A stretch of 64,000 bases of DNA, from positions 192,001 to 256,000 of the forward strand of contig CAXWPJ010000010.1 in the NCBI GenBank assembly GCA_963664115.2. Reading direction: 5' to 3'. Both the position numbers and the translations under genes were made by a program. Of this stretch, positions 25,786 through 61,217 are shown one piece after another; position 1 is the stretch's first letter; each line of letters opens with the position of its first letter. The stretch is from Terriglobia bacterium (GTDB taxonomy: Bacteria > Acidobacteriota > Terriglobia > 20CM-2-55-15). Below the pieces are notes generated by a model, which was given only the letters and a program-made list of their open reading frames with translations, was not told where the DNA came from and did not search any database.

Positions 25786-25813
25786 ACGTCCGAGAAGATG
25801 ATTTATCAGGGCT
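25786..25813 (+). repeat. dif-like site A3 followed by a kinase C-tail remnant (25826-25885, minus strand)
   Basis: acgtccgagaa-gatgat-ttatcagggct, then the reverse complement of QINIVLNWFEELKERVPVP*. Confidence 0.85.
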
Positions 25814-25922
25814 TGACCCCGAAAATCACGGCACCGGCACCCGTTCCTTCAGTTCTTCAAACCAGTTCAGGACGATGTTGATTTGGCTGACACATGCGGC
25901 CTTCTGGTTCGAGTCGGCTGCC

Positions 25923-27824
25923 TCACTCTGCCGTACCCTCGCTGTCCGGTAGTGTGTGAGCAATGGCCAACGCCGCCCACCCCGTTCCAGCCGCCGAGAT
26001 CCACTGATTTCTGCCAAACGGAAAACCACTCTCGAAGTAGATCTGGCTGGGAAAAGCCCGCGTTTGCACGAACCACGCGCCATCCTGATACTGGCTGGCG
26101 AGCAGAAACGCTATACCTCGGCGGTACGGCTCTCCAATAACCGAGGCGCCTGCCTCGTGCAGGGCGAAGAGGGAGAGTCCAGTGGCATATGCGTCGGATT
26201 CCAACTGAGTCAGTTGCGACCAACCTCCATCGGCTCTCTGCTCCGCCAGGATCTCGTTCATTGCTTCTATGACTGTGGCTTGAGGCGCGCCCGCCGAGAC
26301 TAACCCCATGAGCCGCATGGCCCGTTCTTCAGCCGATGACGCCTCTACAGATACCAGCCAGTCTTGTGCCTTCAGAAGGGCACGCTCGATCTCTATCTGA
26401 CGGCCCGGGATCGGATAGAGCGTTAATCCCCGTAAGGCCATCGCCGTATGGCTGACGGTGCTGTATTCCATTGGTGGCCGGTTAACGCCGTTTCCAAGCC
26501 AACTCCCATCGGGCATTTGTGAGGCAAGGGCCCAATGGATCGCTGATGCTGTTACTTTGTTCAATGGATAGTTCTCTGCCGCCAACGCCATCAGGCCATA
26601 ACCGAGCGTCATAGCGTGCCCACCCGGCACTCCCCCTTGTCCCTGCATCATCCCGGGCGAGGCTCGCTGCAGAACGGCCAGTATGTCGTCAAGATTTTCT
26701 TGGGCAAGCTCTTCATTCACGGCGATGCCCTTCGTACGGGCCTCGGCAGCTGCCGAGGCAGGTAGCGTGTTGTGGTGACAGGTGTAGCATGCACGTCGTT
26801 CATACATTAGTGGAGTGGATCGCAGCAACAAACGGACACTCCTAGTGACTGAAACGCGAGCATCTGAAATGCCTCGTGGGTCTGGAGGCGGGAACCCCTC
26901 TCGCCGTGGACCCGCACCTCGCTCCGCACCATACTCCTCCAGTATGTCTATCTTGTCTTGATCGGACCTGTATATAGCCCAATCGAGAGGCCGCTCTCCT
27001 TCCGTGCTCTCTGCGTTCGGATCGGCTCCATTCTCTAGCAAGACCTCTAAGGTCTCTCGTCCCGCGAGTTCGGAGGAGGCGGCAGTCATCAAAGGTGTTC
27101 TCTGGTACGACGTTCGATTGACCGCATTGACGTCGGCACCCATCGCAATCCAGCTGCGAATCAAATCGGGTTCCTGCCAATTCGTCGCCCTATCCAAAAT
27201 ATTGTCGGGAACGTTAACGCCTCGCGACATTAAGTAGTCAATAGCGGGCTTGTAGGGACGTCTAAAAAACGCGGCATTCGGGGCTTCAGGTTCGAGATCG
27301 TTCTCCACCAGGAAGCGAACCACATCAACATCGGCGGTGCGGGCCAGAGAGAACGCGTCTTCGCCAGTGTTGTCTTCCGCGTGAATGTCGGCTCCACTGT
27401 CAACGAGCAATTGGAGCAGGTCTGCAGTCAAGGGGTAAGCAGACGCAATGAGGGCAGGCGTTCTGCCTAGGTTGGATTGGGCGTTGACGTCGGCTCCATG
27501 CTCGATCAGCAAGCGAACCTTGTCAAGATTAGGCACGGCCCACATCAGGGCACTCGCCCCCGTCTGATCTGTCACGTTTGGATCTGCGCCGTCGTCTAGT
27601 AATACTTCAACAGACACCACATCAGCAAACAGGACGGCGAGCATCAGGACGGGTGTGCCGTCTTCATCCACGATATTGGATTCAACGCCACTACGAAGCA
27701 GTCGCTCGATTTCGGCAGAGTTCGCCCTTTGCACTGCCTCAATAAGCGACTCTTCTGGATTGTTGGTCTGCGCAAAGAGAGTCGCAGTCAGGAGCGTAAT
27801 AAACAACAGGCGAGCGAGACGCAT
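25923..27824 (-). CDS. Exported ankyrin-repeat protein with a CxxCH motif and prenyltransferase-like alpha-barrel repeats
   Basis: Signal peptide, GADPN/GADVN ankyrin repeats, CYTCHH, and QMPDGSW, QRADGGW, QYQDGAW. Confidence 0.85.
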   Translation of the reverse strand: MRLARLLFITLLTATLFAQTNNPEESLIEAVQRANSAEIERLLRSGVESNIVDEDGTPVLMLAVLFADVVSVEVLLDDGADPNVTDQTGASALMWAVPNLDKVRLLIEHGADVNAQSNLGRTPALIASAYPLTADLLQLLVDSGADIHAEDNTGEDAFSLARTADVDVVRFLVENDLEPEAPNAAFFRRPYKPAIDYLMSRGVNVPDNILDRATNWQEPDLIRSWIAMGADVNAVNRTSYQRTPLMTAASSELAGRETLEVLLENGADPNAESTEGERPLDWAIYRSDQDKIDILEEYGAERGAGPRREGFPPPDPRGISDARVSVTRSVRLLLRSTPLMYERRACYTCHHNTLPASAAAEARTKGIAVNEELAQENLDDILAVLQRASPGMMQGQGGVPGGHAMTLGYGLMALAAENYPLNKVTASAIHWALASQMPDGSWLGNGVNRPPMEYSTVSHTAMALRGLTLYPIPGRQIEIERALLKAQDWLVSVEASSAEERAMRLMGLVSAGAPQATVIEAMNEILAEQRADGGWSQLTQLESDAYATGLSLFALHEAGASVIGEPYRRGIAFLLASQYQDGAWFVQTRAFPSQIYFESGFPFGRNQWISAAGTGWAALAIAHTLPDSEGTAE

Positions 27825-27862
27825 TATTCCTCCTTATGGCCGAGCTTGGTGCTGAACTCCAT
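27824..27862 (-). pseudogene. Kinase N-terminal remnant / 12-aa leader peptide MEFSTKLGHKEE
   Basis: Matches the kinase start MESGTKLGH. Its stop overlaps the ankyrin gene start (TAATG). Confidence 0.7.
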
Positions 27863-27941
27863 GTTTAGTGTGTCGCTGAAAAACCGTGAAAAACTCGGTA
27901 AAAGATACTAGAGGAGTGAGTTAGGCGCTATCAAATTCTCA

Positions 27942-29220
27942 AGTCCTGAGAAACGAATTCAGATCAACCGGTCGATGCAACACCTGCGTTTAATGTCTCT
28001 GCCGGATTAGCGAAGTCCAGCGTCTCACGAGGTCGCCCGTTGAGCTTCCTTGCGATCATATCCAAATGCTCCTGTGAGTGAACCGACAAATCCGTCCCTT
28101 TAGGAAAATACTGTCGGAGCAAACCGTTCGTGTTTTCGTTCGAACCCCGTTGCCAGGGACTCCTCGGATCGCAAAAGTAAACGGCAATGTCGGTGGCCAG
28201 AGTGAACCGTTTGTGATTGGCCATTTCCAATCCGCGATCCCAGGTCAGTGTTTTATAGAGTTCGGTCGGGAGTTTGTCTGCGTGTTCGATCAGCGCGTTG
28301 ATGACGGTTTCGGTTTCCTTATTCGGAACCTTCACCCGCATCACGTACCGGGAGAAACGTTCGACCAATGTCGCAATGTAGGTGTTGTTCGAACCCGCTA
28401 TGAGATCCCCTTCCCAGTGTCCGGGGACCGCGCGATCTTCAACCGAAGCCGGGCGCTCACGGATCGATATCAGATCCGGGATCTGCCCGCCACCCCGGCC
28501 TTTGCGACTGGCATGCTGGGACCGGCGAATCGTGCGTTTGGTCCGTAGATGCTGTGTCAGTTCTTTCTTCAGAGCCCCGCGGGCCTGGATGAAAAGGCTG
28601 CGATAGATCGTTTCGTGTGACACGTAAAGTGACTCGTCGTCTGGATATTCGCGTTTCAGCCAACCCGCAATTTGTCGCGGTGCCCAATCCTCCCGGAGCT
28701 TCTCTTCGACGATCCCGCGTAAGCTGGGATAGCGGATCAGTCGACATCTCTTCGGGCGGTGAGCCCGTTCCCATGCGCGTTCATCCGCCTCCAACGCTCG
28801 ATAGTTATCATAGCCCCCATTGCGACCGATCTCCCGACTGACTGTGGAGGGTGTACGCGACAGCGACTCGGCAATTGAACGGATCGATCCCTTGGCGGCA
28901 ATGCCTCGGGAAATCTCTTCACGCTCGGCGAGGGTCAGCGCCCGCTTAGAGCGGCATCGTGTCCTGGGACAGATTCCACCATACGGTGCGATCTGACCAT
29001 AAACCGAAGAGCCCTCCTTTCCGAACACACGTCCGATCGCTTTCAGACTCTCTCCCCGCTGCCAGCGAATCCACACCTCGTCTATATCGGCGAGTGTGTA
29101 GCCTCGCCGCACCCGGTCTTTACTCTGTTTCTTCCGTCGTTTCTTACGCATACACTCCACCTCCTCCTTTTAGGTACAGTGTTGCATCGATCTGTTGAGA
29201 TCACCGACATTGTCGGACGT
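27942..29220 (-). repeat. Inverted partner site B1, split by IS30
   Basis: agtcctgagaa-acga|IS|gaca-ttgtcggacgt. Removing the IS restores the same spacer (acgaca) as B4. Confidence 0.8.
27957..29205 (-). mobile_element. IS30-family element (transposase 27964-29160)
   Basis: Motifs GHWEGDLI, TWDRGLEM and SPWQRGSNENTNGLLRQYFPKG. About 27-bp inverted repeats sharing tcgatgcaacac. Apparent 2-bp (GA) duplication. Confidence 0.92.
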
Positions 29221-29642
29221 TGAGAATTGCTTTGGCTTGATCAGAGCCTTCTCAGTCAATGTTTGCATGCAGTTGGGGCATTTGGCGGTCTCCAGAGCCC
29301 AAACATCTCCCTGCTGTTCGTAGCGCAGCAAATAGGTCTTACCGTTAGTCGTGCGAACCTTGAGGTACTCGGCGTCGGGTTCGAACCAACGGTTCTCGAC
29401 GGAAGCAATCTCGTAGGCTTCTTCGTGCAGAAGCACATAGGGAAGCGCGGATTCGTTGGTTAGCCACCCGCTACCTGTCGTGGACAACCTTGAAAACCTG
29501 CCCTCCTGAGTTGACGATGCCCTGCGGCACTTTGCCGTCCAGCCGTTCCAGAATTTCCCGCAAGGCCGTGGCGTTCCCTTCCATGCCAAGTGCAATCCAC
29601 GGAGGGAGTCGTCGCCCAGATTTAATCCCACGAGCCTCCAGG

Positions 29643-30512
29643 TCACAGAAGCCGCGCCAGATCCTGCGGCAGCGGTGATTCAAACCTTAGAAGTTCTGCA
29701 GACAACGGGTGCTTGAATTGCAGGGAACTAGCGTGCAATCCCAGTCGCTGGGCAGGATTCGTGCGGGCCTCATATTTGTGATCGCCGATGATCGGACATT
29801 CCGCATCAGCCAGATGCACCCGGATTTGATTGCGCCGACCCGTCTCTGGTGTCAGTTCGATCAACGCGCGGGTCCCGATTCGCTTCATCACCCGGTAATG
29901 GGTCACCGAATGGCGTGTCCGCTCGCTGGGAGGGGCGCTGTAGACCTTGAAGGGGCTGCTCTCATCCAGGTGTGACCTCAGCACGCCGTGGTCAGCCGGT
30001 GGATTTCCTTCCACCACTGCCAGGTAGCGTTTTTCGGCCTTGTACCAATGTGTTTGCAGCGCGTGCTTCGCCGCCTCCGTCTTCGCAAAAACCATTAGCC
30101 CGGACGTCTCGCGGTCCAACCGGTGGACGATCCACACCCGCTCCGGGCTCTGAGGATTGCCGCGGCGCACGTAGTCAGTTAGAAAGGCATAGGCTGTCTT
30201 GTCCCGTTCCGTCGCGTTGGCCATGCTCAGCAGATTCTCGGGCTTCTCGATGACAATTAGCGACGCATCCTCAAACAATACCTTCATTCCCGGTGGCAAC
30301 AGACCTTCTGCGCGTACCTCGCCCCTGGGGCGAATCGAAACCAAATCCCCGGTCTCCAGAGGGTGAGTCGAGCGTGTGATCGACCGACCGTTGACTTGAA
30401 CCGACCCGTACTTGAGCCACTGCCGCACCTTTGTCCTCTTCACCTCAGGGCAACAGGCAAAAAGAAAGGCCAGAAGTTCCGCAGGGTGTTCGACAGTGTG
30501 AGATGCGGGCAT
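29643..30512 (-). CDS. RluA-family pseudouridine synthase
   Basis: IVHRLDRETSGLMVFAK, TGRRNQIRVHLA, IIGDHKY and LGLHASSL. Confidence 0.93.
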   Translation of the reverse strand: MPASHTVEHPAELLAFLFACCPEVKRTKVRQWLKYGSVQVNGRSITRSTHPLETGDLVSIRPRGEVRAEGLLPPGMKVLFEDASLIVIEKPENLLSMANATERDKTAYAFLTDYVRRGNPQSPERVWIVHRLDRETSGLMVFAKTEAAKHALQTHWYKAEKRYLAVVEGNPPADHGVLRSHLDESSPFKVYSAPPSERTRHSVTHYRVMKRIGTRALIELTPETGRRNQIRVHLADAECPIIGDHKYEARTNPAQRLGLHASSLQFKHPLSAELLRFESPLPQDLARLL

Positions 30513-30678
30513 GACGCTGTGTTGCAGTGAAACAGGCTCCCGAAGCTATCAGGCAATCGGAGAACGCGACGCAGACGAAAGGCGGACCAGACCCTTGACT
30601 TCGCTCACGCCAACAGTCTAGCCGGTAACGAGGCTGGTGGCGATTCTGTCGGCGATTGGCAGGACAATCAAAGTCTCA

Positions 30679-30764
30679 AGTCCTGTTAAACGGTATTGTG
30701 TCATTTGAGAAATGCCTGAAATACGGGGGTTTTTCAACTTCCGACGAGATGATTTATCAGGACT
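30679..30764. repeat. Site pair B2 (30679-30706, degenerate) and A4 (30737-30764)
   Basis: agtcctgttaa-acggta-ttgtgtcattt, then acttccgacga-gatgat-ttatcaggact, then a kinase-tail remnant. Confidence 0.75.
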
Positions 30765-31170
30765 TGACCTTGGAAATCAGGGAACCGGCACTCGTTCCTT
30801 CAGTTCTTACGCCCAACAGGCGCTTTCACGCCACGAAAAACGCAGCCAATTCTCGGTGTGACAAAAACACAACGTCGTCGTCAAAGAGGTTGAGTGACAA
30901 TTTCCTCCACCATCCCACTCACGGGTGTTCGTTGTAATAGGGCACCCGCCATTTTTTTTGACGAAACACCATCGGGCCTCGATTATCTATCCCCTCTGTA
31001 CCGGGCGGAACGGCTTTTCGGCTTTCAGTCCTAAGGGGAAGCTGAGGGACGTCGCCCGGTACGCAAAAGCCTACCGCTCCTTTGTTCTTCTCTAAGTGTT
31101 GCGGCTCGTTGACAAAGCAGCATTCAGAATCGATTAAAATAGAAACAGGGACAAAAACACAAGGTGAGCC

Positions 31171-34057: not shown

Positions 34058-34294
34058 TCACGGCACCGGCACCCTTTCCTTCAGTTCTTCAAACAAATTG
34101 AGGACGATGTTGATGTCGGACTGGTCAGCGCCGGCGTCATCCTTGCCGTTCTTGATCATGAGAAACGGTTCGCCGTCAGCCCAAGCATCATAGAGCTGCC
34201 GGCCTGAATTTGGAGTGGGGTAGCTTCTTTCGAAGAGCATCTGGGGCCGGCCCGCCGTGAAGATCGCACCCGATTCCACCGGCGCGGCCATCAA
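34058..34294 (-). pseudogene. Orphan kinase C-terminal fragment
   Basis: YDAWADGEPFLMI...INIVLNLFEELKERVPVP. Confidence 0.75.
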
Positions 34295-35223
34295 TCCAGC
34301 GCGACTTCCTGAACCATCAGGAAGCGTTGGCCGTCGGCTGACACATCGTAGACGGGATAAGGCCCTCCGGCCCTCGACACGAAACCTCCTTCAAAAAGCA
34401 ACCTGGGAGTGCCCGCTGTAAAGCCGGGTTCCGTCTCGATGTCCACCGCCATCATCTGAAGGTCGTTCAGGTAGAACAACTCTCGCCCGTCTCGTGCCCA
34501 TTGGGGGTAGCCACCGCCTTCGGTCGATATCTGCCGCTTCCCTCCAGGTCCGGGAAACGGGAGCACATAGACTTCGTTGCGGCCTGACTCGTCCGAGACA
34601 TACGCCACCCAACGGCCATCGGGAGAAAACATTGCTACGAGCTCATTGAATGGCGTTTCGAGAAAGGGGCGCGGCTCCCGGTCGCCGTCCAAGGGCATCA
34701 TCCAGATGTCTCGGTCCCCATCACCTCCAAGGCCTGGACTTTGAAAAAAGGCTAGAAGTTGGCCGTCGGGGGACCAAGATGTGGGGTTCTGCCGGGGGGC
34801 CCCCGTCGTCAGCTGCTCTTCAGTGCCGCTCCCATCTGCCCTTTTCCAGAACAGGAAGTTATTTTCCTCTGGGATCGACCGATAGGCCACGTATTGCCCA
34901 TCCGGCGTCCATACGGGCTGATTCGACCCACCTGCAAAGGTCAGGCGGGTAAGCGTCTGTCGGGCAATGTCGAACAGCCAGATATCATCATCTGACATGA
35001 CCGCCACGCTCTGCTCATCCGGCGAAAGGCGGGGATATTGGTAATCGCGGGCCGCTGCCCCCATGGGTTCCGCGTTGCCCTGTCGATCCACCCAGACCAG
35101 TGTTTCGGTCCCCTCTAGTGGGCCCTGAGGCGAAGCGACGCCCGGGTCGTCTGCCGAACAACCAGAGCCGAGGCCGGCGGCTACAGCCGCGACAACCAGA
35201 ATTATCCACACATTGCTCATCAT
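34291..35223 (-). CDS. PD40/TolB-like beta-propeller lipoprotein
   Basis: Lipobox-like GSGC, SPDG/TPDG repeats, and clear similarity to the second propeller of the kinase at 56476-59145. Confidence 0.8.
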   Translation of the reverse strand: MMSNVWIILVVAAVAAGLGSGCSADDPGVASPQGPLEGTETLVWVDRQGNAEPMGAAARDYQYPRLSPDEQSVAVMSDDDIWLFDIARQTLTRLTFAGGSNQPVWTPDGQYVAYRSIPEENNFLFWKRADGSGTEEQLTTGAPRQNPTSWSPDGQLLAFFQSPGLGGDGDRDIWMMPLDGDREPRPFLETPFNELVAMFSPDGRWVAYVSDESGRNEVYVLPFPGPGGKRQISTEGGGYPQWARDGRELFYLNDLQMMAVDIETEPGFTAGTPRLLFEGGFVSRAGGPYPVYDVSADGQRFLMVQEVALD

Positions 35224-35515
35224 TATTGCCTCCTTATGGCTGATGATGCATGAGAACCGCCGCACAAACCCAGACTGACTCGAAAGCGACAACCTCCAGA
35301 GTCTCGAAGTAGTTCTGAAGCATGTCTATTCAATGCACTGGACCGATGTGATTCGATGAATGAGACTACAGGTAGCGTTTCAGGTCAATTGAAACAGTCA
35401 CATGGACGGTATGGGCACCATCCAGACATGTGGAATTGCTGCGGGTTTTGTTAGGGGTGTTTTGAGGAGGTTTTCGGGGAATGGAAAGCTGATTTGAGCG
35501 AGACAGCGGGGGTCG

Positions 35516-35895
35516 CTACGGCACCGGCACCCGCTCTTTCAGTTCTTCAAACCAGTTCAGGACGACGTTGATTTGGGGGCGGGAGGGTCCGTCGTCTACC
35601 TCGTCTGCCGGGAACACCATCACGAATTGTTCGCCGTTTGGAGTGATGTCGTAGTCCCTGAAGGCCGCAAACACCCGGAACCCTTCTATCGGAAGCGTCT
35701 GCTCGCCTCCAAATGCAAACTGAGGTTCGGTCGCAATACTGATCCTCATCAATCCTTCTGCGAAGCCGTCTACCGCTTGTGCTCCCCTACGATAGAACAG
35801 TTCCCCTCCATCAGTTGACCAGAGTGGGGCGTTACCCACCTCCTCAGTAACGCGGTACCGAACGCCCGTCGGAGGAAACGGTTGAACGTAGACCG
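35516..35895 (-). pseudogene. Orphan kinase C-terminal fragment
   Basis: PLWSTDGGELFYR...YDITPNGEQF...INVVLNWFEELKERVPVP. Confidence 0.75.
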
Positions 35896-35901: not shown

Positions 35902-36070
35902 TCAGGGAATCGGCACACGTTCTTTCAGTTCTTCAAACCAGTTGAGGACGATGTTGATTGTGGGAAACTGTGCGGCCTCGCTCTCAGCGTCGTCGGCCCT
36001 GATCCTAAGAAAGCGCTGAGCGTCAGGCGTAACATCGTAAACACCTAACGAATTGTCATATGTGACGAAA
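35902..36070 (-). pseudogene. Orphan kinase C-terminal fragment
   Basis: YDVTPDAQRFLRI...INIVLNWFEELKERVPIP. Confidence 0.75.
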
Positions 36071-38488: not shown

Positions 38489-38735
38489 TGTGTCTCTCCC
38501 TTTTAAAAAACCGTTAACTCAATTCGAATTGCCCGAGGCCGAACGTCGGCCAAGTTGCGGATCAGTTGGGACGCGGGATCGGGGTCCGCCTGGACACCTA
38601 CACAGTCGCCGGATTGTACCCACGGCGCAACGCCGTCACAGTCTTGAAATCCAGCCTCATTCAATTGGAAGCCAGCGGCAACGCCTTCATTTCTCACTCT
38701 CGGCAGCGAGGTAAACCCACACAATTCGATTCTCA

Positions 38736-38763
38736 ACTTCCGACAAGATGATTTGTCAGGACT
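38736..38763 (+). repeat. dif-like site A5
   Basis: acttccgacaa-gatgat-ttgtcaggact, then ctacggcaccggc (tail remnant). Confidence 0.85.
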
Positions 38764-38950
38764 TGAGCTCCATTTTCACGGTTGGCTACGGCACCGGCTC
38801 CAGGTCCATGACCGCGCCGCCATTCCACAGGCCGTTCAGATCGCGGACCGGAGCCGGCTCCTGGGCAGCTCCGTAGCGCGACAGGGTGAGAAACATAATT
38901 ACAAAGAAAGACGCACCGCCGGAACGTCTGATCATGTCGGATGCTCCCGC

Positions 38951-44695: not shown

Positions 44696-44741
44696 ATATG
44701 GTCTCCTTCGATCCGGATGCCCCGTTCCGGTTGAATTCTCA

Positions 44742-52121: not shown

Positions 52122-52423
52122 GCCGAATGAAGTCGGACATGGCAAATGCCCACTCGGGCCTCGACACAGTAATCTAATGCCGGGGCCGCATCAAAGAACC
52201 TCTGCTCTGGAAGGTCGTCCCTAGCCGCACCCAGCGGCCCGATGAAAGCCGACTGACGAACACCCATGCGAAGGATGCGTCCACAAGTTCTCATCGTGGA
52301 CCTCGCCGAATCACCTATCGACTTGAGGTGATCTTCTAGGACTAATGGGGGTTGAGAATACGGTGGCATTTTCACTGGACAACTACAGGAAAGCGTCAAC
52401 TCCCGTCTTTTGCCCAATTCTCA

Positions 52424-52451
52424 AGGTCCGAGAAGATGATTTCTCAGGACT
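52424..52451 (+). repeat. dif-like site A9 with kinase-tail remnant
   Basis: aggtccgagaa-gatgat-ttctcaggact, with a tail remnant at 52472-52525. Confidence 0.85.
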
Positions 52452-52564
52452 TGAGAATCGTTTTCACGGTCAACTAAGGAACCGGCACCCGTTCATTCAG
52501 TTCTTCAAACCATTTCAGGACGATGAGAATCCGGGGCCGGACAGCCTGGCGGAATCAAAACGGT

Positions 52565-53042: not shown

Positions 53043-53062
53043 CGGGATGATTTCAATTCTCA

Positions 53063-53090
53063 ATGTCCGAGAAGATGATTTATCAGGACT
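53063..53090 (+). repeat. dif-like site A10 with kinase-tail remnant
   Basis: atgtccgagaa-gatgat-ttatcaggact, with a tail remnant at 53103-53142. Confidence 0.85.
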
Positions 53091-53180
53091 TGACCTCGGA
53101 AATTAGGGAACCGGCACCCGTTCATTCAGTTCTTCAAACCAGGACGGAATCAATTCTCAGCTTTCGCCAACAGAGAGCAT

Positions 53181-54271
53181 TCACTGGCTGTGTCGGACCG
53201 CAAAGTCGGACAGTTGTTGGAAATACTGCGGCGGAAATCCGGCTGTCGTCGGGATGTACTTCAAGGCCAGCATGGTGTGGTCAACGTTCGGGAGGACCTC
53301 AATCTCTATCGCTTTGCCGGATCGCGCACGATACTCGGTGAGGAATTCCACGCTATCTGCGGTCTGAACGTTGAGGTCGTTTTCGGCAAAGATATAGAGC
53401 ATCGGTGTGTCGATCAGGTCCAGAAACGGCCTCGGATCGTAAGACCAATCCCCAGCAGGCTGTTCGTAAAAGTCCGCGTCGTAATCAACGAGCTGGGCTG
53501 GAAGGCGGGGAAGTCCCTGATCGGAAAATTCCTCCAGTGCCTGATTGATCGCTTCCCGTTCTGGCCCGAGGGCGTACGCCTCGTCTGATGCCGCCAGGAT
53601 GACGTAGCGCCAGATTCGCTCGCGGAGTACCAACAAATCCTCAAGCTCTGTACCGCTGATGTTCAGTGCCTTCCAATCATTTTCGACTTCGTACAAGTTA
53701 ACGTCGATCCATGATAGCGGAGGGCCCGCGCGATTGATGATGAACGCAATCTCACCAACTGACGCCGCCACCTCTGGGGTACCCCCCCCCCGCTGCTACC
53801 GAGAAGCCCCACGCGATCAGGGGCGATGTCAGTCCGTTGTTGCAGGAACCGAACAGCGGCGATGGCATCGTCAATGAAGTCGCGGTAAGTCGCGTCGCCA
53901 AAATCGCCCTCGGACTCACCCGCCCCTCGCTTGTCGTACACGAGTGCAGCAAGGCCGGCCCTGACGAGCATGTTCGTGTGGATTCTGTAGGCCGCCATGC
54001 CGCGTGTGTGCGGGCCAGAACCGTGCAGAATCACAGCTGCCGGATGCGGACCGTCGGTCTCGCGCTTGACGAGGACGCCCGCCAGTCGAATCTGTCCGGA
54101 CTGGATCGAGACTTGTTCGACGTTTCCGCCGTAGGCCAAGAAGTAATTGAGCCAAGCACCCACAAGGATTAGAAGGACAGTCACGACAACGGCCAGCCCG
54201 ATCCCCAGTCGTTTGAATGTCGCGCTGTGGTTCTTGAGCCAGCTTGGGTTGACTGGCACGCTAGACCTCAC
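53181..54271 (-). pseudogene. Alpha/beta hydrolase, frameshifted at the nucleophile elbow
   Basis: LHGSGP, YDKRGAGES and GLLGSS, then a frame change at a C10 run (53782-53791). AENDLNV and DH lie in the downstream frame. Confidence 0.7.
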
Positions 54272-54520
54272 CCATCCCGCCCTCGCCGATGGCGAAGAGG
54301 ATTGCGTAGTGACCGGGTTGCATTGGATGAATAAGACTACACGTGGGGTTTCAGGTCAATTAAACAGTCACATCTCCGCATAGGGGACGATACAGGGAGC
54401 GCCAGTAGTAGTTATCCAGATCTACGGCCGTTGATCGCGCAACCGCAGCTCTTGCGCGGGGTGGGATGCGGCCCGGAGCATGGTGGGCGCGATTACGGTT
54501 GCCGGGATTTTACGGGTATT

Positions 54521-54967
54521 CTATCGTCCGCGCTGCCGGCGATACTCAGCGAGACGCGCCTCCATTATTCTCAATCGCTCGCCGAGCTGCCCGTTTCCAC
54601 CGCCAACTTCACTCCCGTCAGGCCGCGTGATGAAGGTCCATTCCACCATGTTCGATCCGTCTCGTGACGGGCGGCCCAATATGTGGATTCGATCCCCGGG
54701 CTTGAACTGATCCAACGTCCAGCCTGCTCGCCGGAGATTGATGACGCTGTCTCCCTCCGCCATCCAGGATTCTGTTTCACCTCGCTCATTCGTCACGTCA
54801 AAGTAAATCCGCGAATGCGGGTTGATCGCTCGAAATTCGGTCACCACGCCTTCGATTTCCATGCGCTCATCGACGATGTAGTGTGCCGCGGGGTTATGGT
54901 GGGCGAAGGCGGGCACTGAAACCAGCAGTGCGCCATAGACAAAGGTCAAGATCTTGCCTGTCATCAT
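54521..54967 (-). CDS. DUF6152-like exported protein
   Basis: AHHNPAA, AINPHS and LRRAGW...KPGD. Confidence 0.75.
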   Translation of the reverse strand: MMTGKILTFVYGALLVSVPAFAHHNPAAHYIVDERMEIEGVVTEFRAINPHSRIYFDVTNERGETESWMAEGDSVINLRRAGWTLDQFKPGDRIHILGRPSRDGSNMVEWTFITRPDGSEVGGGNGQLGERLRIMEARLAEYRRQRGR

Positions 54968-54983
54968 CTCACTGTCCTCCACA

Positions 54984-55835
54984 TCAGCGTTGCCCGGAGA
55001 TCGACTCGCAAGGGGCATCCAGCAAATCCACCTCGGGCGTACGGAGTCTAGTATGTTCTAGCACCAGCGGCTCTCGAAACATGACCGGATCGATCAGCGT
55101 GAACTGCATGTGCAGTCGGCGGCCATCCTCGCTGAGGGTGTAGCGCTCAATACTGCTCGCGTTATCGGCGTTGTGAATAGCCAGGTTGTCTTCGGCGACG
55201 TTAGCCGCGACATTCACGGTGTCCACCACCAGCGTAGATCCCTCGTACCGACCAATCGAATGACCCAGCGGGCTCGGTTGTGCGTCTTGTGGATGACCGC
55301 GTCCATCCGTGTAGATGACGCGGTCCGACGCCATGTCTTCTGCCCTGATGACGATGCGGTCGTCGTTCTGCTCGATCAGGATAGGGTCGTTGTGCAGTAC
55401 GGTGCGAAAGGCCCCGAAGTACTCACACTGAATAGAGGGATCGTCGGCGTGGTCGTACGTTGCCGCGTAGTCTGTACCTCCTTCGGTTAACAGAGCTGCA
55501 ATGGCTCGTTGGTTGTGATCGCGGACGGCTTGCCGGATTTCTGCGGCTGACAGATGGTCGTTCTCCGGGAGCAGGAGCTCACGAAGGTGCTCGTAGCTTT
55601 CCCGGGTACAGTTGCAGGCAAAGAGATCCTCGAGGGTCCAATCTGGGTGCTCGACAGAGGTTGTGGTCGTGCTCCACATGCCCGACAGGGCCGGAGGCGG
55701 CTGCTCCTGGGCCCCGGCGAGCGGTATGCCGAGAACGAGAGTGCCCGCGACGGCCGCGCCAAGGAGTTTATGTTTGGCGACCCTCGCGAAGGTACGCAGC
55801 AGCGGGACTCCGCGCGGGGCGATAACGAGTCTCAT
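54984..55835 (-). CDS. Exported hypothetical protein (commonly paired with DUF6152)
   Basis: RVIYTDGRGHP, GHSIGRYEGSTLVVDT and DPVMFREP. Confidence 0.7.
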   Translation of the reverse strand: MRLVIAPRGVPLLRTFARVAKHKLLGAAVAGTLVLGIPLAGAQEQPPPALSGMWSTTTTSVEHPDWTLEDLFACNCTRESYEHLRELLLPENDHLSAAEIRQAVRDHNQRAIAALLTEGGTDYAATYDHADDPSIQCEYFGAFRTVLHNDPILIEQNDDRIVIRAEDMASDRVIYTDGRGHPQDAQPSPLGHSIGRYEGSTLVVDTVNVAANVAEDNLAIHNADNASSIERYTLSEDGRRLHMQFTLIDPVMFREPLVLEHTRLRTPEVDLLDAPCESISGQR

Positions 55836-55968
55836 GATTCCTCAATGACGGACAGTTCCGTTTCTGAGTCGATTTTACCTGACTCGGCCACGGATTGGCC
55901 CGCAAATTCGATGCTAGAGGTTGATTTTCTGCTTGCCGATACAGACCACCCACACGTGATATCGCCCT

Positions 55969-56328
55969 AAGTGCTTCTGCGATCTGAAGTGCGAGTTTCA
56001 GAGACTCTTCAACCGGGATAGCCCCACGGCCAACACGATCTGCCAGCGTGTCACCTTCCACGAGTTCCATGACAAGGAAGTGGGTTCCATTGTCTTCTTC
56101 AAACCCGTGAATGGCAGCAATGTTTGGATGATTCAGCGAGGCCAGGAGTTTGGCTTCACGCTCGAACCGGGCAAGGCGATCTGTATCCTTGGCGAACTCT
56201 TCTGGCAGAGTCTTAATAGCAACCTCACGCCCCAACTTTGTATCCTTCGCACGCCACACTTCCCCCATACCTCCTCTTCCAAGGAGCGTTGAGATCTCGT
56301 AGTGGCCGAGTTTGGTTCCGGATTCCAT
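55969..56328 (-). pseudogene. Ser/Thr kinase N-terminal remnant (about 120 codons)
   Basis: Near-identical to the start of the intact kinase up to QIAEAL. Lacks HRD and DFG. Confidence 0.85.
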
Positions 56329-56435
56329 GTTTAACGTGTGTCGCCAAAAGGAACGGCGAAATTCTGGTAAGTCTATCTACATGGGAGGGTTATTGGCAAG
56401 GAAAGGGTCAACTCCCAAAATTTGGCCAATTCTCA

Positions 56436-56463
56436 ATGTCCGCGAAGATGATTTCTCAGGACT
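56436..56463 (+). repeat. dif-like site A11
   Basis: atgtccgcgaa-gatgat-ttctcaggact, 12 bp from the stop codon of the intact kinase. Confidence 0.85.
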
Positions 56464-56475
56464 TGACCTCGAAAA

Positions 56476-59145
56476 TCAAGGCACCGGCACCCGTTCCTTC
56501 AGTTCTTCAAACCAGTTTAGGACCACGATGATCTCGCCCCCGCGTGAGTCGTTCTCTGATTCGCGAATCATGAGAAAACGTTCGCCATCCGGCGCGATGT
56601 CGTAAGTGTGGGAACGGAATCCAGAGGATCGCAGGTAAGGACCGGAGAACAGCTCTCTCTGCTGCGTTGCCACGAAGGCCGGAGTCGTCTCGACCGAGGC
56701 CGCCATCACTCTACTCCCTTGGCGGTAGTAGATTTCAGTTCCGTTGGGGGACCATATAGGTTCTTCTCCTCCCGCTCGGGACACGCGCCATGGCCCTCCA
56801 TCTGCGACGTTAGGAAACGGCCTGACCAAGATCTCTGGTTGGCCTAACTCGTCGGACGAATAGACCATCCAGCGACCGTCTGGGGAGATTTGCGCGTGTC
56901 GTTCTCCCGAATCTGAAGCAAGCAGTGCCTGTGGACTGGGTTCACCAACCAGCGAGAGCTGTCTGAGGTCCGAGTCTGTCTCCGGCCTCACCGCGTATAC
57001 CAGCGTCTCTCCGTCAGGCGAGACAGAGGACAGTATCGGCGGTAATCCGGGAGGAAGTACCGCGATGCTCTCGGCTTGATCCGTGCCGTCCGCACGTCGC
57101 CGAAAAACCGTAAACACCCCCTCCGGGTCGGAAAGGAACACCACGTGTTGCCCATCCGGCGTCCACAACGGCTGCATGTCGGCTGTCGTCACATCGAAGA
57201 TGAATGGCCTTGTTGTTTCTCCCACCACGTCGTGCAGCCACAAATCTTCCCGAGACTCCGGACCCTCAGCAACAAGAGCGACCCTCATCCCATCGGGCGA
57301 AATCTGTACACCGCCGTAGGCGAGTGTCTCGCCTTGAAGAGGCTCTTCACTCCCCGCGCGATCGACCCATACCAACGCCCTTGCGCCGTCACCCATGTCC
57401 GCCGGGATGTAGGTCATCGCTCCGCTCTCAGCGAGGGCGAATTGCACCGCGCCACCGCCCTCTATTCGAACCCCCTCAAGCACCGGAAGTGCATTGCCGG
57501 TAATCTCGAGTCGGGACTCATCGAACGGGACCGCCCACAACGATGCGCCAGTCTGCGCGTAGAGTAGATGACCCGTAGGCGAGTAACGAGGGAAGAAGCC
57601 ATTGCCGAGCACCTTTCTCTCTCCGGTCTGCAGAGACACCACTGCAATCTGGGCCGTGTCCAGCGAACCTGACCAGATCGTGAATAGCACCGCGTCACCA
57701 GCAGGCAGGAACGCGGGCTCGTCGTGATATATCTCACCGGCTTGCAGCCTGGTCAGCTGCTCCGGAGCGCCTCCCGTCAACGATAGCCGCGAGAGTGCGA
57801 GCGTGTTGGAATCTGAAAACACGATCGTCTGATCGGGACCCCAGGTGCTACCAAAGCCACCACATTCGCAGATCGTTGTCGGCGATTCTCCTGCCAAAGA
57901 AACCCTCTTCAGACCGTCGGGACTCCCGAATGCAAGCCACTGGCCATCAGGCGAAAAGAAAGGGAAGTCCGCACCCTCCGAGCCGCGGATCGGTACGGCT
58001 TCAAGTCCGTTTATGGGACGACGGTACAGTTGGTCTCCCTCCTCAGTAAAGGCTCTGTAGACGAGTTCCTGACCGTCGGGAGACAGCGCGAGAAGATGCC
58101 CCACCCTTGGGGGGAGCTCACCACTGACATCGATTGCAAAACGTGCCGCAGTCTGGTTCGACGAAGCTGGTCCTGACGACCAACTGGCGACAACCGCAAT
58201 CAGGAGCGCAACCCCCGTGACAACCCACGGCACTTTCGACTGCGGTGCTGCATGAGCAACCCCACCAACCGACTGCACGAGCACACCGCTCGGGTCCGCC
58301 AGCACTTTCTCGATGTCCGCTTTCACATCACCTATATCCTGGAATCTTGTTGCGGCTTGTTTGTCAAGACACCGTTCCACCACTTCCCGAAGTCGTGGAT
58401 GAAGATTAGGGGGCAGAGTGTCCCACTCCGGCTGCAGGCTGATCACGGCCGAGAGAGACTCCGCCACATCGGACTTACCGAAGGACTGACGGCCTGTGAG
58501 CATTTCATAGAGGACACAGCCGAACGCGAATATGTCCGTGCGTTTGTCAACTGCGCGGCCCTTGGCTTGTTCAGGGCTCATATAGGCGGCGGTGCCGAGG
58601 ATCATTCCTTGCTGCGTAGCCGCCATACTCAGCGTTGGCGAGTTCGATACGCTTGCGTCGACCTCATCACCGGCAAACGCTTTAGCTAACCCAAAGTCGA
58701 GCACTTTCACATTGTCGTCGTCGGTGACTTTGATGTTCAGAGGCTTTAGGTCTCGATGGATGACACCTTTTTCGTGTGCAGCCTTGAGAGCATCGGCGAC
58801 TTGTAGAGCTATTTTGAGCGAGTCCTCAACAGCTATGGCTCCACGGTTTAGGCGATCCGCGAGTGTGTCCCCTTCGACAAGTTCCAAGACGAGGAAGTGC
58901 GTTCCGTTGTGTTCCTCAAATCCGTGGATGGCTGCAATGTTCGGGTGATTCAGAGAGGCCAGTAGCTTCGCTTCACGTTCAAACCGTGCAAGTCGGTCCG
59001 CATCCTTGGCGAACTCTTCGGGCAGCGTCTTGATCGCCACTTCGCGCCCGAGTTTTGTGTCCCGCGCACGCCAAACTTCTCCCATGCCTCCTTTACCCAG
59101 GAGGGTTGAGATCTCGTAGTGGCCGAGTTTGGTGCCAGATTCCAT
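56476..59145 (-). CDS. Hanks-type Ser/Thr protein kinase with a TM segment and PD40/TolB-like beta-propellers
   Basis: GKGGMG, VAIK, HRDLKPLN, DFG and YMSPE. TM segment VPWVVTGVALLIAVVA. SPDG repeats. Ends in VLNWFEELKERVPVP. Confidence 0.95.
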   Translation of the reverse strand: MESGTKLGHYEISTLLGKGGMGEVWRARDTKLGREVAIKTLPEEFAKDADRLARFEREAKLLASLNHPNIAAIHGFEEHNGTHFLVLELVEGDTLADRLNRGAIAVEDSLKIALQVADALKAAHEKGVIHRDLKPLNIKVTDDDNVKVLDFGLAKAFAGDEVDASVSNSPTLSMAATQQGMILGTAAYMSPEQAKGRAVDKRTDIFAFGCVLYEMLTGRQSFGKSDVAESLSAVISLQPEWDTLPPNLHPRLREVVERCLDKQAATRFQDIGDVKADIEKVLADPSGVLVQSVGGVAHAAPQSKVPWVVTGVALLIAVVASWSSGPASSNQTAARFAIDVSGELPPRVGHLLALSPDGQELVYRAFTEEGDQLYRRPINGLEAVPIRGSEGADFPFFSPDGQWLAFGSPDGLKRVSLAGESPTTICECGGFGSTWGPDQTIVFSDSNTLALSRLSLTGGAPEQLTRLQAGEIYHDEPAFLPAGDAVLFTIWSGSLDTAQIAVVSLQTGERKVLGNGFFPRYSPTGHLLYAQTGASLWAVPFDESRLEITGNALPVLEGVRIEGGGAVQFALAESGAMTYIPADMGDGARALVWVDRAGSEEPLQGETLAYGGVQISPDGMRVALVAEGPESREDLWLHDVVGETTRPFIFDVTTADMQPLWTPDGQHVVFLSDPEGVFTVFRRRADGTDQAESIAVLPPGLPPILSSVSPDGETLVYAVRPETDSDLRQLSLVGEPSPQALLASDSGERHAQISPDGRWMVYSSDELGQPEILVRPFPNVADGGPWRVSRAGGEEPIWSPNGTEIYYRQGSRVMAASVETTPAFVATQQRELFSGPYLRSSGFRSHTYDIAPDGERFLMIRESENDSRGGEIIVVLNWFEELKERVPVP

Positions 59146-59252
59146 AAAATAGTGTGTACCTAAACGAACAGTGAAAAAGTTGGATAAATCTAACTACAGG
59201 TGGGGTTTATAAGCAAGGAAGTTGTGAGCTGGCGGATCTCATCCAATTCTCA

Positions 59253-59280: not shown

Positions 59281-59417
59281 TGACCCCGAAAATCAAGGGA
59301 CCGGCACCCGTTCTTTGAGTTCTTCAAACCCGTTCTGAACCCCGATGGTCCGGGATTGCCCTGCTTCACTGTTTGTGCTCGCGTTGTCTGAAGACGATTT
59401 GAGCCCGAATCACAGGC

Positions 59418-60113: not shown

Positions 60114-60254
60114 CGTGACGTCTCCTTTTGCGGGTTCGACGCGTCGAGTCACCGTGGATCGGTGTCTGGCGGTGAACCGAGTTTGCGATCCAAACTTCTC
60201 TCTATCAGGCAAGACAGAACCGCCATGCGGGTCGTCCTAAACTCATAGTGCAGT

Positions 60255-60330
60255 CAAACACCTCACTCATTCCACCCCTGCCCAAAAGTGTGAGGATCTC
60301 GTAGTGGCCGAGTTTGGCGCCAGATTCCAT
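60255..60330 (-). pseudogene. Kinase N-terminal remnant (about 25 codons)
   Basis: MESGAKLGHYEILTLLGRGGMSEV. Confidence 0.8.
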
Positions 60331-60412
60331 CGTTCATAGTGTGTCGCTGAAAAACCGTGAAAAACTTGGTAAACGATACTAGAGGTGGGTGTTAGGCGCT
60401 ATCAAATTCTCA

Positions 60413-60506
60413 AGTCCTGAGAAACTTTGTAGGTAGTTGAGAAATAGGCCAATTATTGGGGTTTTTGGGGAATTCTCAACTTCCGCGAAGATGATTTCTC
60501 AGGACT
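60413..60506. repeat. Site pair B5 (60413-60437, shortened spacer) and A13 (60479-60506)
   Basis: agtcctgagaa-act-ttgtaggtagt-tgagaa, then acttccgcgaa-gatgat-ttctcaggact, then a tail remnant at 60518-60557. Confidence 0.8.
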
Positions 60507-60611
60507 TGAACTCGCAAATCATGGGACCGGCACGCGTTCCTTCAGTTCCTCAAACCAACGTCAGGCTGTTTTATACGTTCACGTTCGCAGCTCCAACGCT
60601 CACCTCGAAGA

Positions 60612-60839
60612 TTACGAATTCTTCTGGTATGGAGATACCTTCGCCGCACTGTAATCAGAGCGATGCCCGCATTCAGATTCGCTGCAGGTGAGAAACAGCT
60701 GTGCCAGCGGCTCGAACGGACCGTGTCCTTCGGTTCGATCCAGACCGAACAAAATCGGCGAGTGGCATTTCGCACAAAGCACACTCAAGTACCATCGCTT
60801 CTCAGTCGATTTTGGAAATCGGGAAAACTGCATAAGCAC
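60612..60839 (-). CDS. Small putative zinc-ribbon protein
   Basis: CAKC and CSESEC motifs. It is the only ORF between A13 and A14. Confidence 0.45.
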   Translation of the reverse strand: MLMQFSRFPKSTEKRWYLSVLCAKCHSPILFGLDRTEGHGPFEPLAQLFLTCSESECGHRSDYSAAKVSPYQKNS

Positions 60840-60867
60840 ACGGTTTTGGGGGATCGCGCAATTCTCA

Positions 60868-60895
60868 ACGTCCGAGAAGATGATTTCTCAGGACT
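60868..60895 (+). repeat. dif-like site A14 with kinase C-terminal fragment (60908-61060, minus strand)
   Basis: acgtccgagaa-gatgat-ttctcaggact, then YDITPDGERF...INIVLNWFEELKERVPVP. Confidence 0.85.
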
Positions 60896-61217
60896 TGACC
60901 TCGAAAATCAGGGGACCGGAACCCGCTCCTTCAGTTCTTCAAACCAGTTCAGGACGATGTTGATTTGGGGGACAGGGGCATCAGTGTCGCCAGTGTCCGC
61001 CACGGCGGTTGTCTGAACGAACACGAACCGCTCGCCGTCGGGAGTGATGTCGTACGTTGGAGCTAAAGTAATCTCGTTCAGCTTAACCCGAGCATCGCGA
61101 TCGGAACCAGGGATTATAGTTGACATGCACGGGGGAGAGGATCATATTTCGGGGCCAAGGAGCAATTCAAATCGGAAATTCCGGTTAAGTTGCATCCCGG
61201 TTCAAGGAGGTCTGAAA

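What the first reader, a model, noticed from the sequence alone, without database searches (positions are those of the whole stretch)
25786..61060. Modules are 'kinase shells': the ends of a Ser/Thr kinase gene are kept while the interior is replaced by cargo
Seen: most A sites are followed within about 10-25 bp by the reverse complement of the kinase 3' end (...FEELKERVPVP*), at 25826, 30778, 44782, 52472, 53103, 56476, 59293, 60518 and 60908. Shorter traces follow A1 and A5. The far ends of modules carry a conserved leader plus kinase 5' ends of varying length: 9 codons at 27862, about 78 at 42564, about 120 at 56328 and about 25 at 60330. Only A11-A12 holds the full kinase. Between the remnants lie unrelated genes (ankyrin protein, TonB-like receptor, hydrolase plus DUF6152, DsrE-like). 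Inference: an ancestral mobile kinase cassette was amplified and its termini act as a vehicle that captures passenger genes, reminiscent of gene capture by non-autonomous elements. I know of no described system like this.
Basis: partly seen in the sequence, partly recalled or inferred. Interest (0 to 1): 0.92.

Follow-up and report, generated by a model that had tools for sequence, protein, structure and literature searches.

The report
Kinase-derived gene cassettes between recombination sites
An acidobacterial genome carries about 180 copies of a short palindromic DNA site that bounds gene modules found reshuffled between arrays and related species, and the kinase-gene stubs beside these sites are likely leftovers of the founding module, so this is likely an undescribed cassette-shuffling system run by a tyrosine recombinase that is predicted but untested.

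Summary
The remnants are real, at the stated places, and not an assembly artefact: contigs of independent runs span the junctions. They are one part of a genome-wide system. A 28-bp 11-6-11 palindrome (about 40 bp with flanks) occurs 178 times, in two spacer classes: A just beyond the kinase stop, B just before a promoter-like leader. It is abundant in two congeners (79 and 34 matches) and rarer in a third (8). Window modules recur elsewhere at 94-99.7% identity, ending at these sites. The 'shell' is the minority: 27 of 143 units have both ends, 62 have neither. Cargo joins kinase DNA at scattered short homologies, not at the sites. So the sites, not the kinase termini, most likely define the mobile unit; tails hitch-hike and the leader probably supplies a promoter. 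The best enzyme candidate is a 321-aa tyrosine recombinase lying between two B sites, whose relatives are flanked by similar sites. Against it: it was not found in two site-rich congeners, and arm alleles do not follow their flanks as a fixed central crossover requires. It works like dif modules or integrase-less cassette arrays but fails both membership tests.

The parts
7404..7443 (+). A site; its left flank (groEL side) is shared with congener G002, its right flank differs
20438..20477 (+). A site; starts a module (20430-25816, less an inserted IS) that recurs on contig C12 at 99.7/97%
25780..25819 (+). A site
25826..25888 (-). kinase tail, about 20 codons
25923..27824 (-). cargo: ankyrin-repeat protein
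27836..27931 (-). 9-codon kinase head and promoter-like leader
27936..29226 (-). B site split in its spacer by an IS30-type element (27961-29205)
29643..30512 (-). cargo: RluA-type pseudouridine synthase, no kinase remnant
30676..30689 (-). right arm of a degenerate B site, back to back with the A site at 30731
30731..30770 (+). A site
30777..30808 (-). kinase tail, about 10 codons
31479..31509 (-). internal kinase tail without a site
34058..35292 (-). broken kinase 3' part (beta-propeller and tail); 34058-35557 is 96.8% identical to a G002 module that still has its A site
35402..35430 (+). degenerate site of a divergent third class, with a second leader type before it
35518..35893 (-). kinase 3' remnant
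35902..36039 (-). kinase 3' remnant; 36070-38766 is 93.9% identical to a G002 module ending at the same A site
38730..38769 (+). A site with a very short tail trace
38951..39463 (-). cargo: DUF6152 gene directly behind a leader
39505..39544 (-). degenerate B site
39583..39596 (+). right arm of a degenerate A site
39642..42257 (+). cargo: TonB-dependent-receptor-like gene, opposite to the leader
42328..42636 (-). 79-codon kinase head and leader
42641..42680 (-). intact B site (spacer TGTCGT), 59 bp from the next A site
42700..44195 (+). A site split just after its spacer by an IS110-family element
44736..44775 (+). A site
44782..44815 (-). kinase tail
52418..52457 (+). A site; 52445-53093 is 96.6% identical to a G001 module from site to site
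52476..52531 (-). kinase tail (25-nt offset class)
53057..53096 (+). A site
53103..53153 (-). kinase tail
53181..54271 (-). cargo: alpha/beta hydrolase in two frames
54231..54399 (.). degenerate head, second-type leader and degenerate third-class site (54372-54399): boundary between two fused modules
54396..55981 (-). cargo block (DUF6152 plus partner), 97-98% identical in G001, G002 (twice) and G004, where no kinase head follows it
55984..56399 (-). kinase head of about 115 codons, joined to the cargo at a short homology, plus leader
56430..56469 (+). A site
56476..59216 (-). full Ser/Thr kinase-PD40 gene (56476-59145) and leader; 93.8% identical to a B-kinase-A unit on contig C5
59247..59286 (+). 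A site
59293..59350 (-). kinase tail
60232..60402 (-). degenerate kinase head and leader
60410..60423 (-). right arm of a B site with a degenerate left arm
60473..60512 (+). A site; 60476-60898 recurs on C6 and C11 at 95.5%, site to site
60519..60558 (-). kinase tail
60862..60901 (+). A site
60908..61057 (-). kinase tail, about 49 codons

Best explanation
The window is part of a genome-wide set of gene modules bounded by a 28-bp palindromic site, which are likely shuffled by a tyrosine recombinase acting at those sites, with the kinase ends likely surviving as hitch-hikers of the founding module. Shown: the founding unit is B site, promoter-like leader, kinase gene, A site, with the two sites inverted; modules recur between arrays and species with ends at the sites; cargo joins kinase DNA at scattered points. 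Inferred: (1) sites of an existing recombinase family came to flank members of an already expanded kinase family; (2) short-homology deletions between neighbouring units fused foreign DNA to a tail plus A site, to a head plus leader, or to both; (3) recombination between sites with the same spacer, mostly A with A in direct repeat, excises units and inserts them at other A sites; (4) the exchange point is blurred by branch migration or gene conversion across the arms; (5) the leader is kept because it transcribes the cargo. Most likely enzyme: the 321-aa simple tyrosine recombinase at G000:C5:52189-53154, perhaps only an intermittent visitor to these genomes.
For: Site geometry 11-6-11 with a near-invariant spacer (245 of 278 distinct A sites GATGAT) beside freely varying arm positions; positions are linked within an arm and unlinked across the centre. 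Two spacer classes with fixed positions: 78 of 149 A sites and 0 of 29 B sites have a tail; back-to-back B/A pairs lie 57-60 bp apart in 22 of 30. Pairs of sites share one flank and switch within the site: 25 left-shared and 19 right-shared pairs, not all independent. Nine window segments recur elsewhere, most with an end at a site. Neighbour orientation: 167 direct A-A, 48 A..B with right arms inward, 37 back to back, 7 inverted A-A. Recombinase: between two B sites, catalytic motifs intact. Flanks of its homologues score on the A/B arm model (over 12 bits upstream in 8 of 99, expected 0.30; downstream 3 of 104, expected 0.33), mostly left arm toward the gene as on C5. Its G007 homologue lies 430 bp from a kinase pair. 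Junction short homology: 4 or more exact bases in 4 of 16 (expected 0.26), 8 or more with one mismatch in 3 of 16 (expected 0.025). First cargo gene co-oriented with the leader in 65 of 79 (background 0.685, p = 0.004); a -35/-10-like pair was found in 60 of 91 leaders.
Against: A fixed central crossover is rejected: in independent pairs with flanks at least 95% alike, the arm on the shared side still differs 10 times against 1.98 expected (10 left-shared pairs) and 10 against 1.39 (8 right-shared pairs); only 5 of 10 and 2 of 8 keep that arm unchanged. The candidate recombinase was not found in G002 (85 sites, 2 contigs, 97% complete), G003 (43 sites) or G004, and its G001 and G017 homologues have no A/B site nearby. 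Most homologues (85 of 99) have no upstream site scoring over 8 bits on this model. Short kinase heads and tails also occur in genera where A/B sites are rare. No circle or excision product was seen; only contigs could be laid. 12 of 16 junctions show fewer than 4 exact shared bases.
Confidence: 0.55

Rival explanations
1. Host XerC/XerD recombine the sites: these are chromosomal dif modules with a degenerate XerD arm, as in some Xer-exploiting elements.
For: XerC and XerD orthologues are the only tyrosine recombinases shared at over 75% by G000, G002 and G003 (18 of 27 G002 matches and all 12 G003 matches compared). The modal left arm matches the host dif left arm at 8 of 11 positions. Inverted A/B ends, empty back-to-back modules and fused direct modules parallel the C, D and CD modules of PMC13141974 (passages read). 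difGGI has a divergent XerD arm (PMC5357621, passages).
Against: The right arm matches the dif right arm at only 5-6 of 11 and lacks its fifth inner base, which PMC9226527 calls most important (passages). The single host dif, conserved in 20 of 35 family genomes, scores 7.0 on the arm model against a median of 30.7 for A/B and up to 18 for recombinase-flanking sites. Sites lie far from dif and in both orientations.
Confidence: 0.17
2. No site-specific enzyme acts now: RecA-type recombination and gene conversion between the 40-100 bp repeats (site plus tail or leader) shuffle the modules, and the palindrome is a relic or an operator.
For: Arm alleles are unlinked from both flanks, as repeated crossovers anywhere in the repeat would give. 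The candidate enzyme is missing in two site-rich genomes. B ends 2 nt before the -35-like box. Tandem kinase arrays with remnants exist without A/B sites.
Against: An operator would not need an invariant spacer or two spacer classes, and only 42 of 143 units end in a leader. Related sites flank recombinase genes in unrelated loci. Invariant arm positions persist across four species.
Confidence: 0.15
3. One reading: kinase termini are the cis ends of a non-autonomous element that captures passengers inside itself (MIC/TIME-like), with A and B as terminal inverted repeats of a transposase.
For: A and B are inverted around intact kinases and around a solitary cargo module in G007. Both ends occur together somewhat more often than independence gives (27 against 19.4).
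Against: Direct A-A units outnumber A..B units 167 to 48. No target duplication was seen at the two solitary units inspected by eye. Exchange falls inside the site, not at its outer end. Tails vary like protein code, not like cis DNA. No transposase tracks the sites except elements that insert into them.
Confidence: 0.07
4. The tyrosine recombinase of the IS91-like element (six identical copies, paired with a Y2-type transposase) or its rolling-circle transposase drives the system.
For: One end of 5 of the 6 copies lies within about 75 bp of a site or arm, and two related elements sit inside B sites. Relatives occur in G002 and G017 beside sites.
Against: No relative over 40% was found among the 12 G003 matches. 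The element ends sit next to or inside sites like other site-hunting IS. Its family label is recalled, not scanned.
Confidence: 0.06

Closest known systems
Acinetobacter dif modules and chromosomal dif module islands (pdif/XerCD; PMC13141974 passages, PMC12907356 abstract and one section)
   Same: 28-bp 11-6-11 sites, inverted around a module; spacer classes that limit partners; fused modules flanked by direct sites; shuffling between arrays; IS elements that hunt the sites (PMC10132070, abstract and one results part).
   Different: The right arm is not a canonical XerD arm; direct repeats dominate instead of alternation; 178 sites against 22 in the chromosome described; conserved extra flanks and a fixed 58-bp back-to-back pair; a kinase founder and a promoter-like leader; the site-hunting IS seen here are IS30- and IS110-type, not IS1202.
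Integron cassette arrays and CALINs (PMC4889954, passages)
   Same: Long arrays of direct sites, one per unit, just beyond a stop codon; arrays persist in genomes without the candidate enzyme; IS110-family elements insert in the sites (parallel with IS1111-attC elements is recalled).
   Different: No compensatory pairing between arms, a fixed 6-bp centre instead of a variable loop, no integron-integrase hit over the cut-off, multi-gene units in either orientation, promoter carried by the module.
Mobile insertion cassettes and TIME composite elements (PMC4133298, passages; MIC231 recalled)
   Same: Ends of a founder element kept around unrelated passengers.
   Different: There the ends are transposase-bound terminal repeats with target duplications; here the kept pieces are parts of a host kinase gene next to recombinase-type sites, usually one end only.
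Xer-exploiting elements with degenerate XerD arms (GGI, TLC; PMC5357621 and PMC9226527, passages)
   Same: XerC-like arm paired with a divergent second arm.
   Different: Those integrate once at dif; here hundreds of sites lie away from dif and no activation factor was looked for.

Membership tests
dif module (pdif/XerCD) | 28-bp site: two 11-bp arms around a 6-bp spacer | tested here: met
   the core is kept in other genera while the outer flanks vary
dif module (pdif/XerCD) | One arm like the host dif XerC arm | tested here: met
   8 of 11 identical between modal left arm and host dif left arm
dif module (pdif/XerCD) | Other arm a conserved XerD arm | tested here: not met
   5-6 of 11, fifth inner base differs; dif scores 7.0 on the arm model against a median of 30.7
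dif module (pdif/XerCD) | Sites alternate in orientation (C and D modules) | tested here: not met
   167 direct A-A neighbours against 85 A/B inverted neighbours
dif module (pdif/XerCD) | Crossover confined to the spacer | tested here: not met
   arm on the shared side differs 5-7 times more than the flank divergence predicts
dif module (pdif/XerCD) | Recombined by host XerC and XerD | not testable with these tools
   needs binding and recombination assays
integron / CALIN | Direct array of sites, one per cassette, after the stop codon | tested here: met
integron / CALIN | attC hairpin kept by compensatory pairing, variable loop | tested here: not met
   no covariation of paired positions (p 0.17 and 0.91); 4 of 8 single-site folds have z above -2; fixed 6-bp spacer
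integron / CALIN | Cognate integron integrase (IntI) | tested here: not met
   the candidate scores 60.7 against a cut-off of 265 on TIGR02249; a separate IntI-like gene on C9 has no site within 2.5 kb (label from my reading of the protein)
MIC / MITE / TIR transposon | Terminal inverted repeats | tested here: inconclusive
   A and B are inverted in 48 units but most units are direct
MIC / MITE / TIR transposon | Target-site duplication | tested here: inconclusive
   none seen at two solitary units inspected by eye; no empty site was found
CRISPR- or casposon-like repeat duplication | Neighbouring repeats identical after insertion | tested here: not met
   adjacent cores differ at 4.02 positions against 4.20 for random pairs; 2.1% against 2.0% identical, n = 193
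simple tyrosine recombinase (candidate enzyme) | Core-binding plus catalytic domain with intact catalytic residues | tested here: met
   PF00589 and SAM-like domains; R, HxxR, H and Y motifs present; subgroup of PMC8138268 not assigned

The most novel reading that the evidence does not exclude
A third kind of bacterial cassette system beside integrons and dif modules: an uncharacterised Acidobacteriota tyrosine recombinase family has its sites spread to hundreds of copies on a host kinase gene family, which was hollowed into promoter-carrying adaptors; modules are traded between arrays and species, the enzyme works in trans as an intermittent visitor, and three IS types have specialised on the sites.
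Probability: 0.4. Interest if true: 0.92.

Novelty: new variant of a known kind. Interest (0 to 1): 0.8.

Why it matters
How new gene cassettes are made is an open question for integrons (called an unknown mechanism in PMC4889954) and, from my own knowledge, for dif modules. Here the intermediates are visible: a founder gene eroded from the inside, junctions with short homologies, and the same cargo with and without kinase ends in sister species. About a fifth of this genome lies within 5 kb of a site, so the system may shape much of the accessory genome of an uncultured group. It also gives a testable pair of recombinase and site from a large unstudied family (over 5,000 clusters at E 1e-100), and IS110 elements with a natural multi-copy target.

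Tried and rejected
Assembly chimera: rejected. Single contigs span 53112-56306 in X1, X4 and X6 (to 56178 in X3) and about 59260-60397 in X1, X4 and X6; 25857-27917 is one contig in X1 and two overlapping ones in X4. The four runs come from four studies, one of which may be the source. Excision joints in those runs: uninformative, since they are contigs and the joints inspected match other genomic copies. attC-like hairpin and repeat duplication: rejected. Tails as in-frame tags on cargo: open frames ending in window tails without a kinase body are only 9-94 codons. Serine resolvase: three genes in G000, none with an A/B site in its locus; the only scoring site among 30 loci lay on a G001 contig. 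NHEJ capture: Ku found in 1 of 5 genomes, not in G000. Strand bias or a tie to the terminus: not evident, the GC skew is scrambled. IS1202-type site hunter: the 1.5-kb element in the spacer encodes an IS110-like transposase instead. I first dismissed the C5 recombinase as cargo and reversed this. Site in viral contigs: 0 exact matches. Rfam: only a tRNA and ALIL. Kinase relatives from other lineages: 0 of 76 loci had a full A/B site, though a few Terriglobia loci show degenerate ones by eye. Atlas and PDB searches gave only generic tyrosine recombinases. Whether head and tail of one shell come from the same paralogue was not tested; no tree was built. recA and RuvABC were not searched. Not-in-print claim rests (open-access full text only; no supplements read) and on scan look-ups.

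Full report
Setting. The window is G000:C10:192001-256000 of a 4.9-Mb, 12-contig, IS-rich genome.

Observation. All nine tails and four heads are present, with small length corrections (56328: about 115 codons; 60330: 34 residues). One full kinase lies at 56476-59145 (889 aa; Pkinase, PD40). Only three cargo units in the window have both ends. The junctions are real: contigs from runs of four studies span tail-cargo-head; one run may be the source.

The site. The repeat is TTCTCA-ANGTCCGAGAA-6 bp-TTNTCAGGACT-TGA. It occurs 178 times in G000 and never in a shuffle; about ten copies are duplicates from overlapping contig stretches, and 96 further half sites exist. There are two spacer classes: 149 A (GATGAT) and 29 B (mostly TGTCGT or GGTCGT). 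78 of 149 A sites and 0 of 29 B sites have a kinase tail, 15 or 25 nt away. B lies about 75 nt before the kinase start, inverted relative to A. Back-to-back B/A pairs are 57-60 bp apart in 22 of 30 cases, 68-70 in 3 and 148 in 5. With up to 2 mismatches the A pattern matches 121 times in G000, 79 in G002, 34 in G003, 8 in G001, once each in G007 and G017, and in none of the other 35 of 41 genomes; reversed-pattern controls were 0. Outside the genus the 28-bp core is kept while the flanks drift, and a divergent class with spacers such as GGCGAC lies 57-85 nt beyond kinase stops in genera g1, g4 and g10 (picked by one motif, so the rows include chance hits).

Modules move, and they end at the sites. 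Segments 20430-25816, 56425-59145 and 60476-60898 recur on other contigs; 34058-35557, 36070-38766, 51455-52454, 52445-53093 and 54395-55981 recur in G001, G002 or G004 at 94-98%; 38790-39545 recurs on C4 at 86%. Most end in an A or B site. Across G000 and the fetched parts of relatives, 25 pairs share only the left flank and 19 only the right flank (not all independent). Neighbouring sites are direct A-A in 167 cases, A..B with right arms inward in 48, back to back in 37, inverted A-A in 7.

What the site looks like. The spacer is GATGAT in 245 of 278 distinct A sites while arm positions 7, 13, 14 and 25 vary. Positions are linked within an arm (7-14, p 6e-6; 25-26, p 5e-15) and unlinked across the centre (14-25, p 0.17; 13-26, p 0.91). 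That fits the overlap homology that tyrosine recombinases need (established knowledge) and argues against an attC-like hairpin. But the exchange is not clean. In non-redundant pairs with the shared flank at least 95% alike, the arm on the shared side differs 10 times against 1.98 expected (10 pairs) and 10 against 1.39 (8 pairs), while the outer three bases follow the flank (0 and 1 differences). Branch migration, conversion or plain homologous recombination must act across the arms.

The enzyme. G000 has 27 PF00589 matches. One, 321 aa at C5:52189-53154, sits between two B sites with left arms inward and kinase heads on both sides, and has intact catalytic motifs. It belongs to a large family, also on plasmids of Granulicella, Acidisarcina and Paludibaculum. 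Flanks of its homologues score on the A/B arm model above shuffles (upstream over 12 bits in 8 of 99, expected 0.30; downstream 3 of 104, expected 0.33), mostly in the C5 orientation, and two (L237, L024) are close look-alikes. The G007 homologue lies divergently 430 bp from a kinase pair that ends in a related site. Against it: not found in G002, G003 or G004 by protein or DNA, and 85 of 99 homologues lack a scoring upstream site. The only recombinases shared at over 75% by G000, G002 and G003 are XerC and XerD (18 of 27 G002 matches compared). The host dif is single copy (ACGTCGCATAA TGAGTA TTATGTCAAGT); its left arm matches at 8 of 11, its right arm at 5-6 of 11, and it scores 7.0 on the model against 30.7 for A/B. 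Integron arrays often persist without their integrase (PMC4889954, passages), so absence is not fatal.

The shell. Of 143 units that start at an A right arm, 66 have a tail, 42 a leader or head, 27 both (19.4 expected if independent; intact kinases included) and 62 neither. Head remnants end anywhere from codon 15 upward, median 46, with no hot spot. In 151 distinct tails the last four codons vary at third positions (0.23-0.56) far more than at first or second (0.01-0.09), and 137 keep a stop of one of three kinds (tails were picked by protein match, which favours this). So they come from many once-coding paralogues. The family is large where A/B sites are scarce: G005 has 19 matches and no site, G004 16 and 1-2 sites; genera g4 and g10 have tandem full-length arrays with some short heads and tails. 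The kinase expansion therefore likely predates the sites.

How cargo joins. From 50 candidate junctions I kept by hand 20 that were not IS or site edges; 4 had no traceable kinase parent. In the other 16, kinase and cargo share 4 or more exact bases in 4 (expected 0.26) and 8 or more with one mismatch in 3 (expected 0.025); the mean is 2.6 against 0.6. The true parent paralogue is unknown, which lowers the counts. Window example: block 54396-55981 is 97-98% identical in G001, G002 (twice) and G004, where it ends in a degenerate arm-like sequence; in G000 that end was replaced by a kinase head at a short shared stretch. Homologues of the ankyrin and 59418 cargo in other genera carry no site or kinase end; in the genus, the G002 ankyrin homologue lies between B and A sites and the G003 and G001 ones have weak leader hits. 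The leader holds a conserved -35/-10-like pair 18 nt apart (60 of 91), and the first cargo gene reads away from it in 65 of 79 cases (p 0.004 against a background of 0.685), whereas genes before tails show no such excess (71 of 113, p 0.92). A plain promoter scan found no excess over shuffles in 52300-61100 (4 against 3.7), so the promoter is inferred.

Site hunters. All 6 copies of the IS30-type element and at least 6 of 8 copies of the window's IS110 element lie in a site, against 2 of 55, 1 of 75 and 0 of 26 for three other IS; all 7 left ends of a second, IS110-like element follow the A spacer directly. Family names other than Pfam's IS110 hit are my labels. This parallels IS that hunt pdif sites (PMC10132070, abstract and one results part).

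Comparison. It works like dif modules, including empty and fused modules (PMC13141974, passages; PMC12907356, abstract and section 10), and like integrase-less cassette arrays, but it fails the XerD-arm, alternation and central-crossover tests for the first and the hairpin and IntI tests for the second. PMC9226527, PMC5357621, PMC8138268 and PMC4133298 were seen as passages, and 10.1101/2022.09.11.507474 as abstract and outline only. Eight searches found no description of this site, this recombinase family or kinase-derived cassettes; subscription papers and supplements were not seen.

Verdict. The sites most likely define the mobile unit; the kinase ends are residues of the founder, and the head end probably brings a promoter. 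Confidence in the full mechanism with the C5-type enzyme is 0.55; some recombinase acting at these sites, about 0.78. Novelty: new variant of a known kind, with a 0.4 chance of a distinct third cassette system. Interest 0.8.

Noticed in passing
window 27961-29205, 42725-44180; L372 (G000:C2:753736-755270): Three IS types insert in or right beside the 6-bp spacer: an IS30-type (6 of 6 copies), an IS110 (at least 6 of 8) and a second IS110-like element (7 of 7 left ends). The IS110s offer a natural multi-copy target for predicting their guide RNAs.
   Followed up: partly
L375 (G000:C1:92885-95360) and five identical copies: An element with a tyrosine recombinase plus a Y2-type transposase (IS91-like, label recalled) sits within about 75 bp of a site or arm in 5 of 6 copies; two relatives lie inside B sites.
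   Followed up: partly
L219, L221-L223, L225, L227, L292, L239, L242, L250: Many genes of the candidate recombinase family have a site about 60-120 bp before the start and another just after the stop, with subfamily-specific sequences: likely minimal site-recombinase-site elements, not found described.
   Followed up: partly
L377-L385 (G047, G048, G017): Tandem arrays of several full-length kinase-PD40 genes with overlapping stop and start; 32-57 tail matches per genome in G047 and G048. The function of this expanded kinase family is unexplained.
   Followed up: partly
G000:C2:319951-320058 and four similar places in G000 and G003: A conserved 108-bp spacer between back-to-back A and B sites; role unknown.
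   Followed up: no
G000:C2:108114-108141: Single host dif site, conserved in 20 of 35 family genomes.
   Followed up: yes
L184 reverse strand, about 2983-3010 (G001:C26): An 11-6-11 site intermediate between host dif and the A site, before an ORF next to a resolvase gene on a small contig.
   Followed up: no
window 10030-11435: Phage-type integrase next to tRNA-Ser(TGA); no A/B site within 2.5 kb; apparently a separate element.
   Followed up: no
G000:C9:714590-715873: An integron-integrase-like gene with no A/B site nearby; attC sites were not searched.
   Followed up: no
window 20542-20593 and 21934-21985: A 52-bp direct repeat (96%) around a 379-aa ORF with no Pfam or NCBIfam match.
   Followed up: no
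G000 C2:1-14093 vs C2:153240-167331; C5:1-11221 vs C9 end; C6 vs C11: Near-identical blocks of 7-16 kb, several at contig ends: overlaps or strain variants in the assembly; they inflate site counts by about ten.
   Followed up: partly
G000:C12:582955 vs L007: A fragment that reads like the start of a translation GTPase gene (prfC-like, label recalled) is cut at an 11-base near-homology with a kinase head: cargo can be a truncated gene.
   Followed up: partly
window 47180-48333: A contig in runs X1, X4 and X6 lacks this IS630-type element exactly: an empty allele exists in those populations.
   Followed up: no
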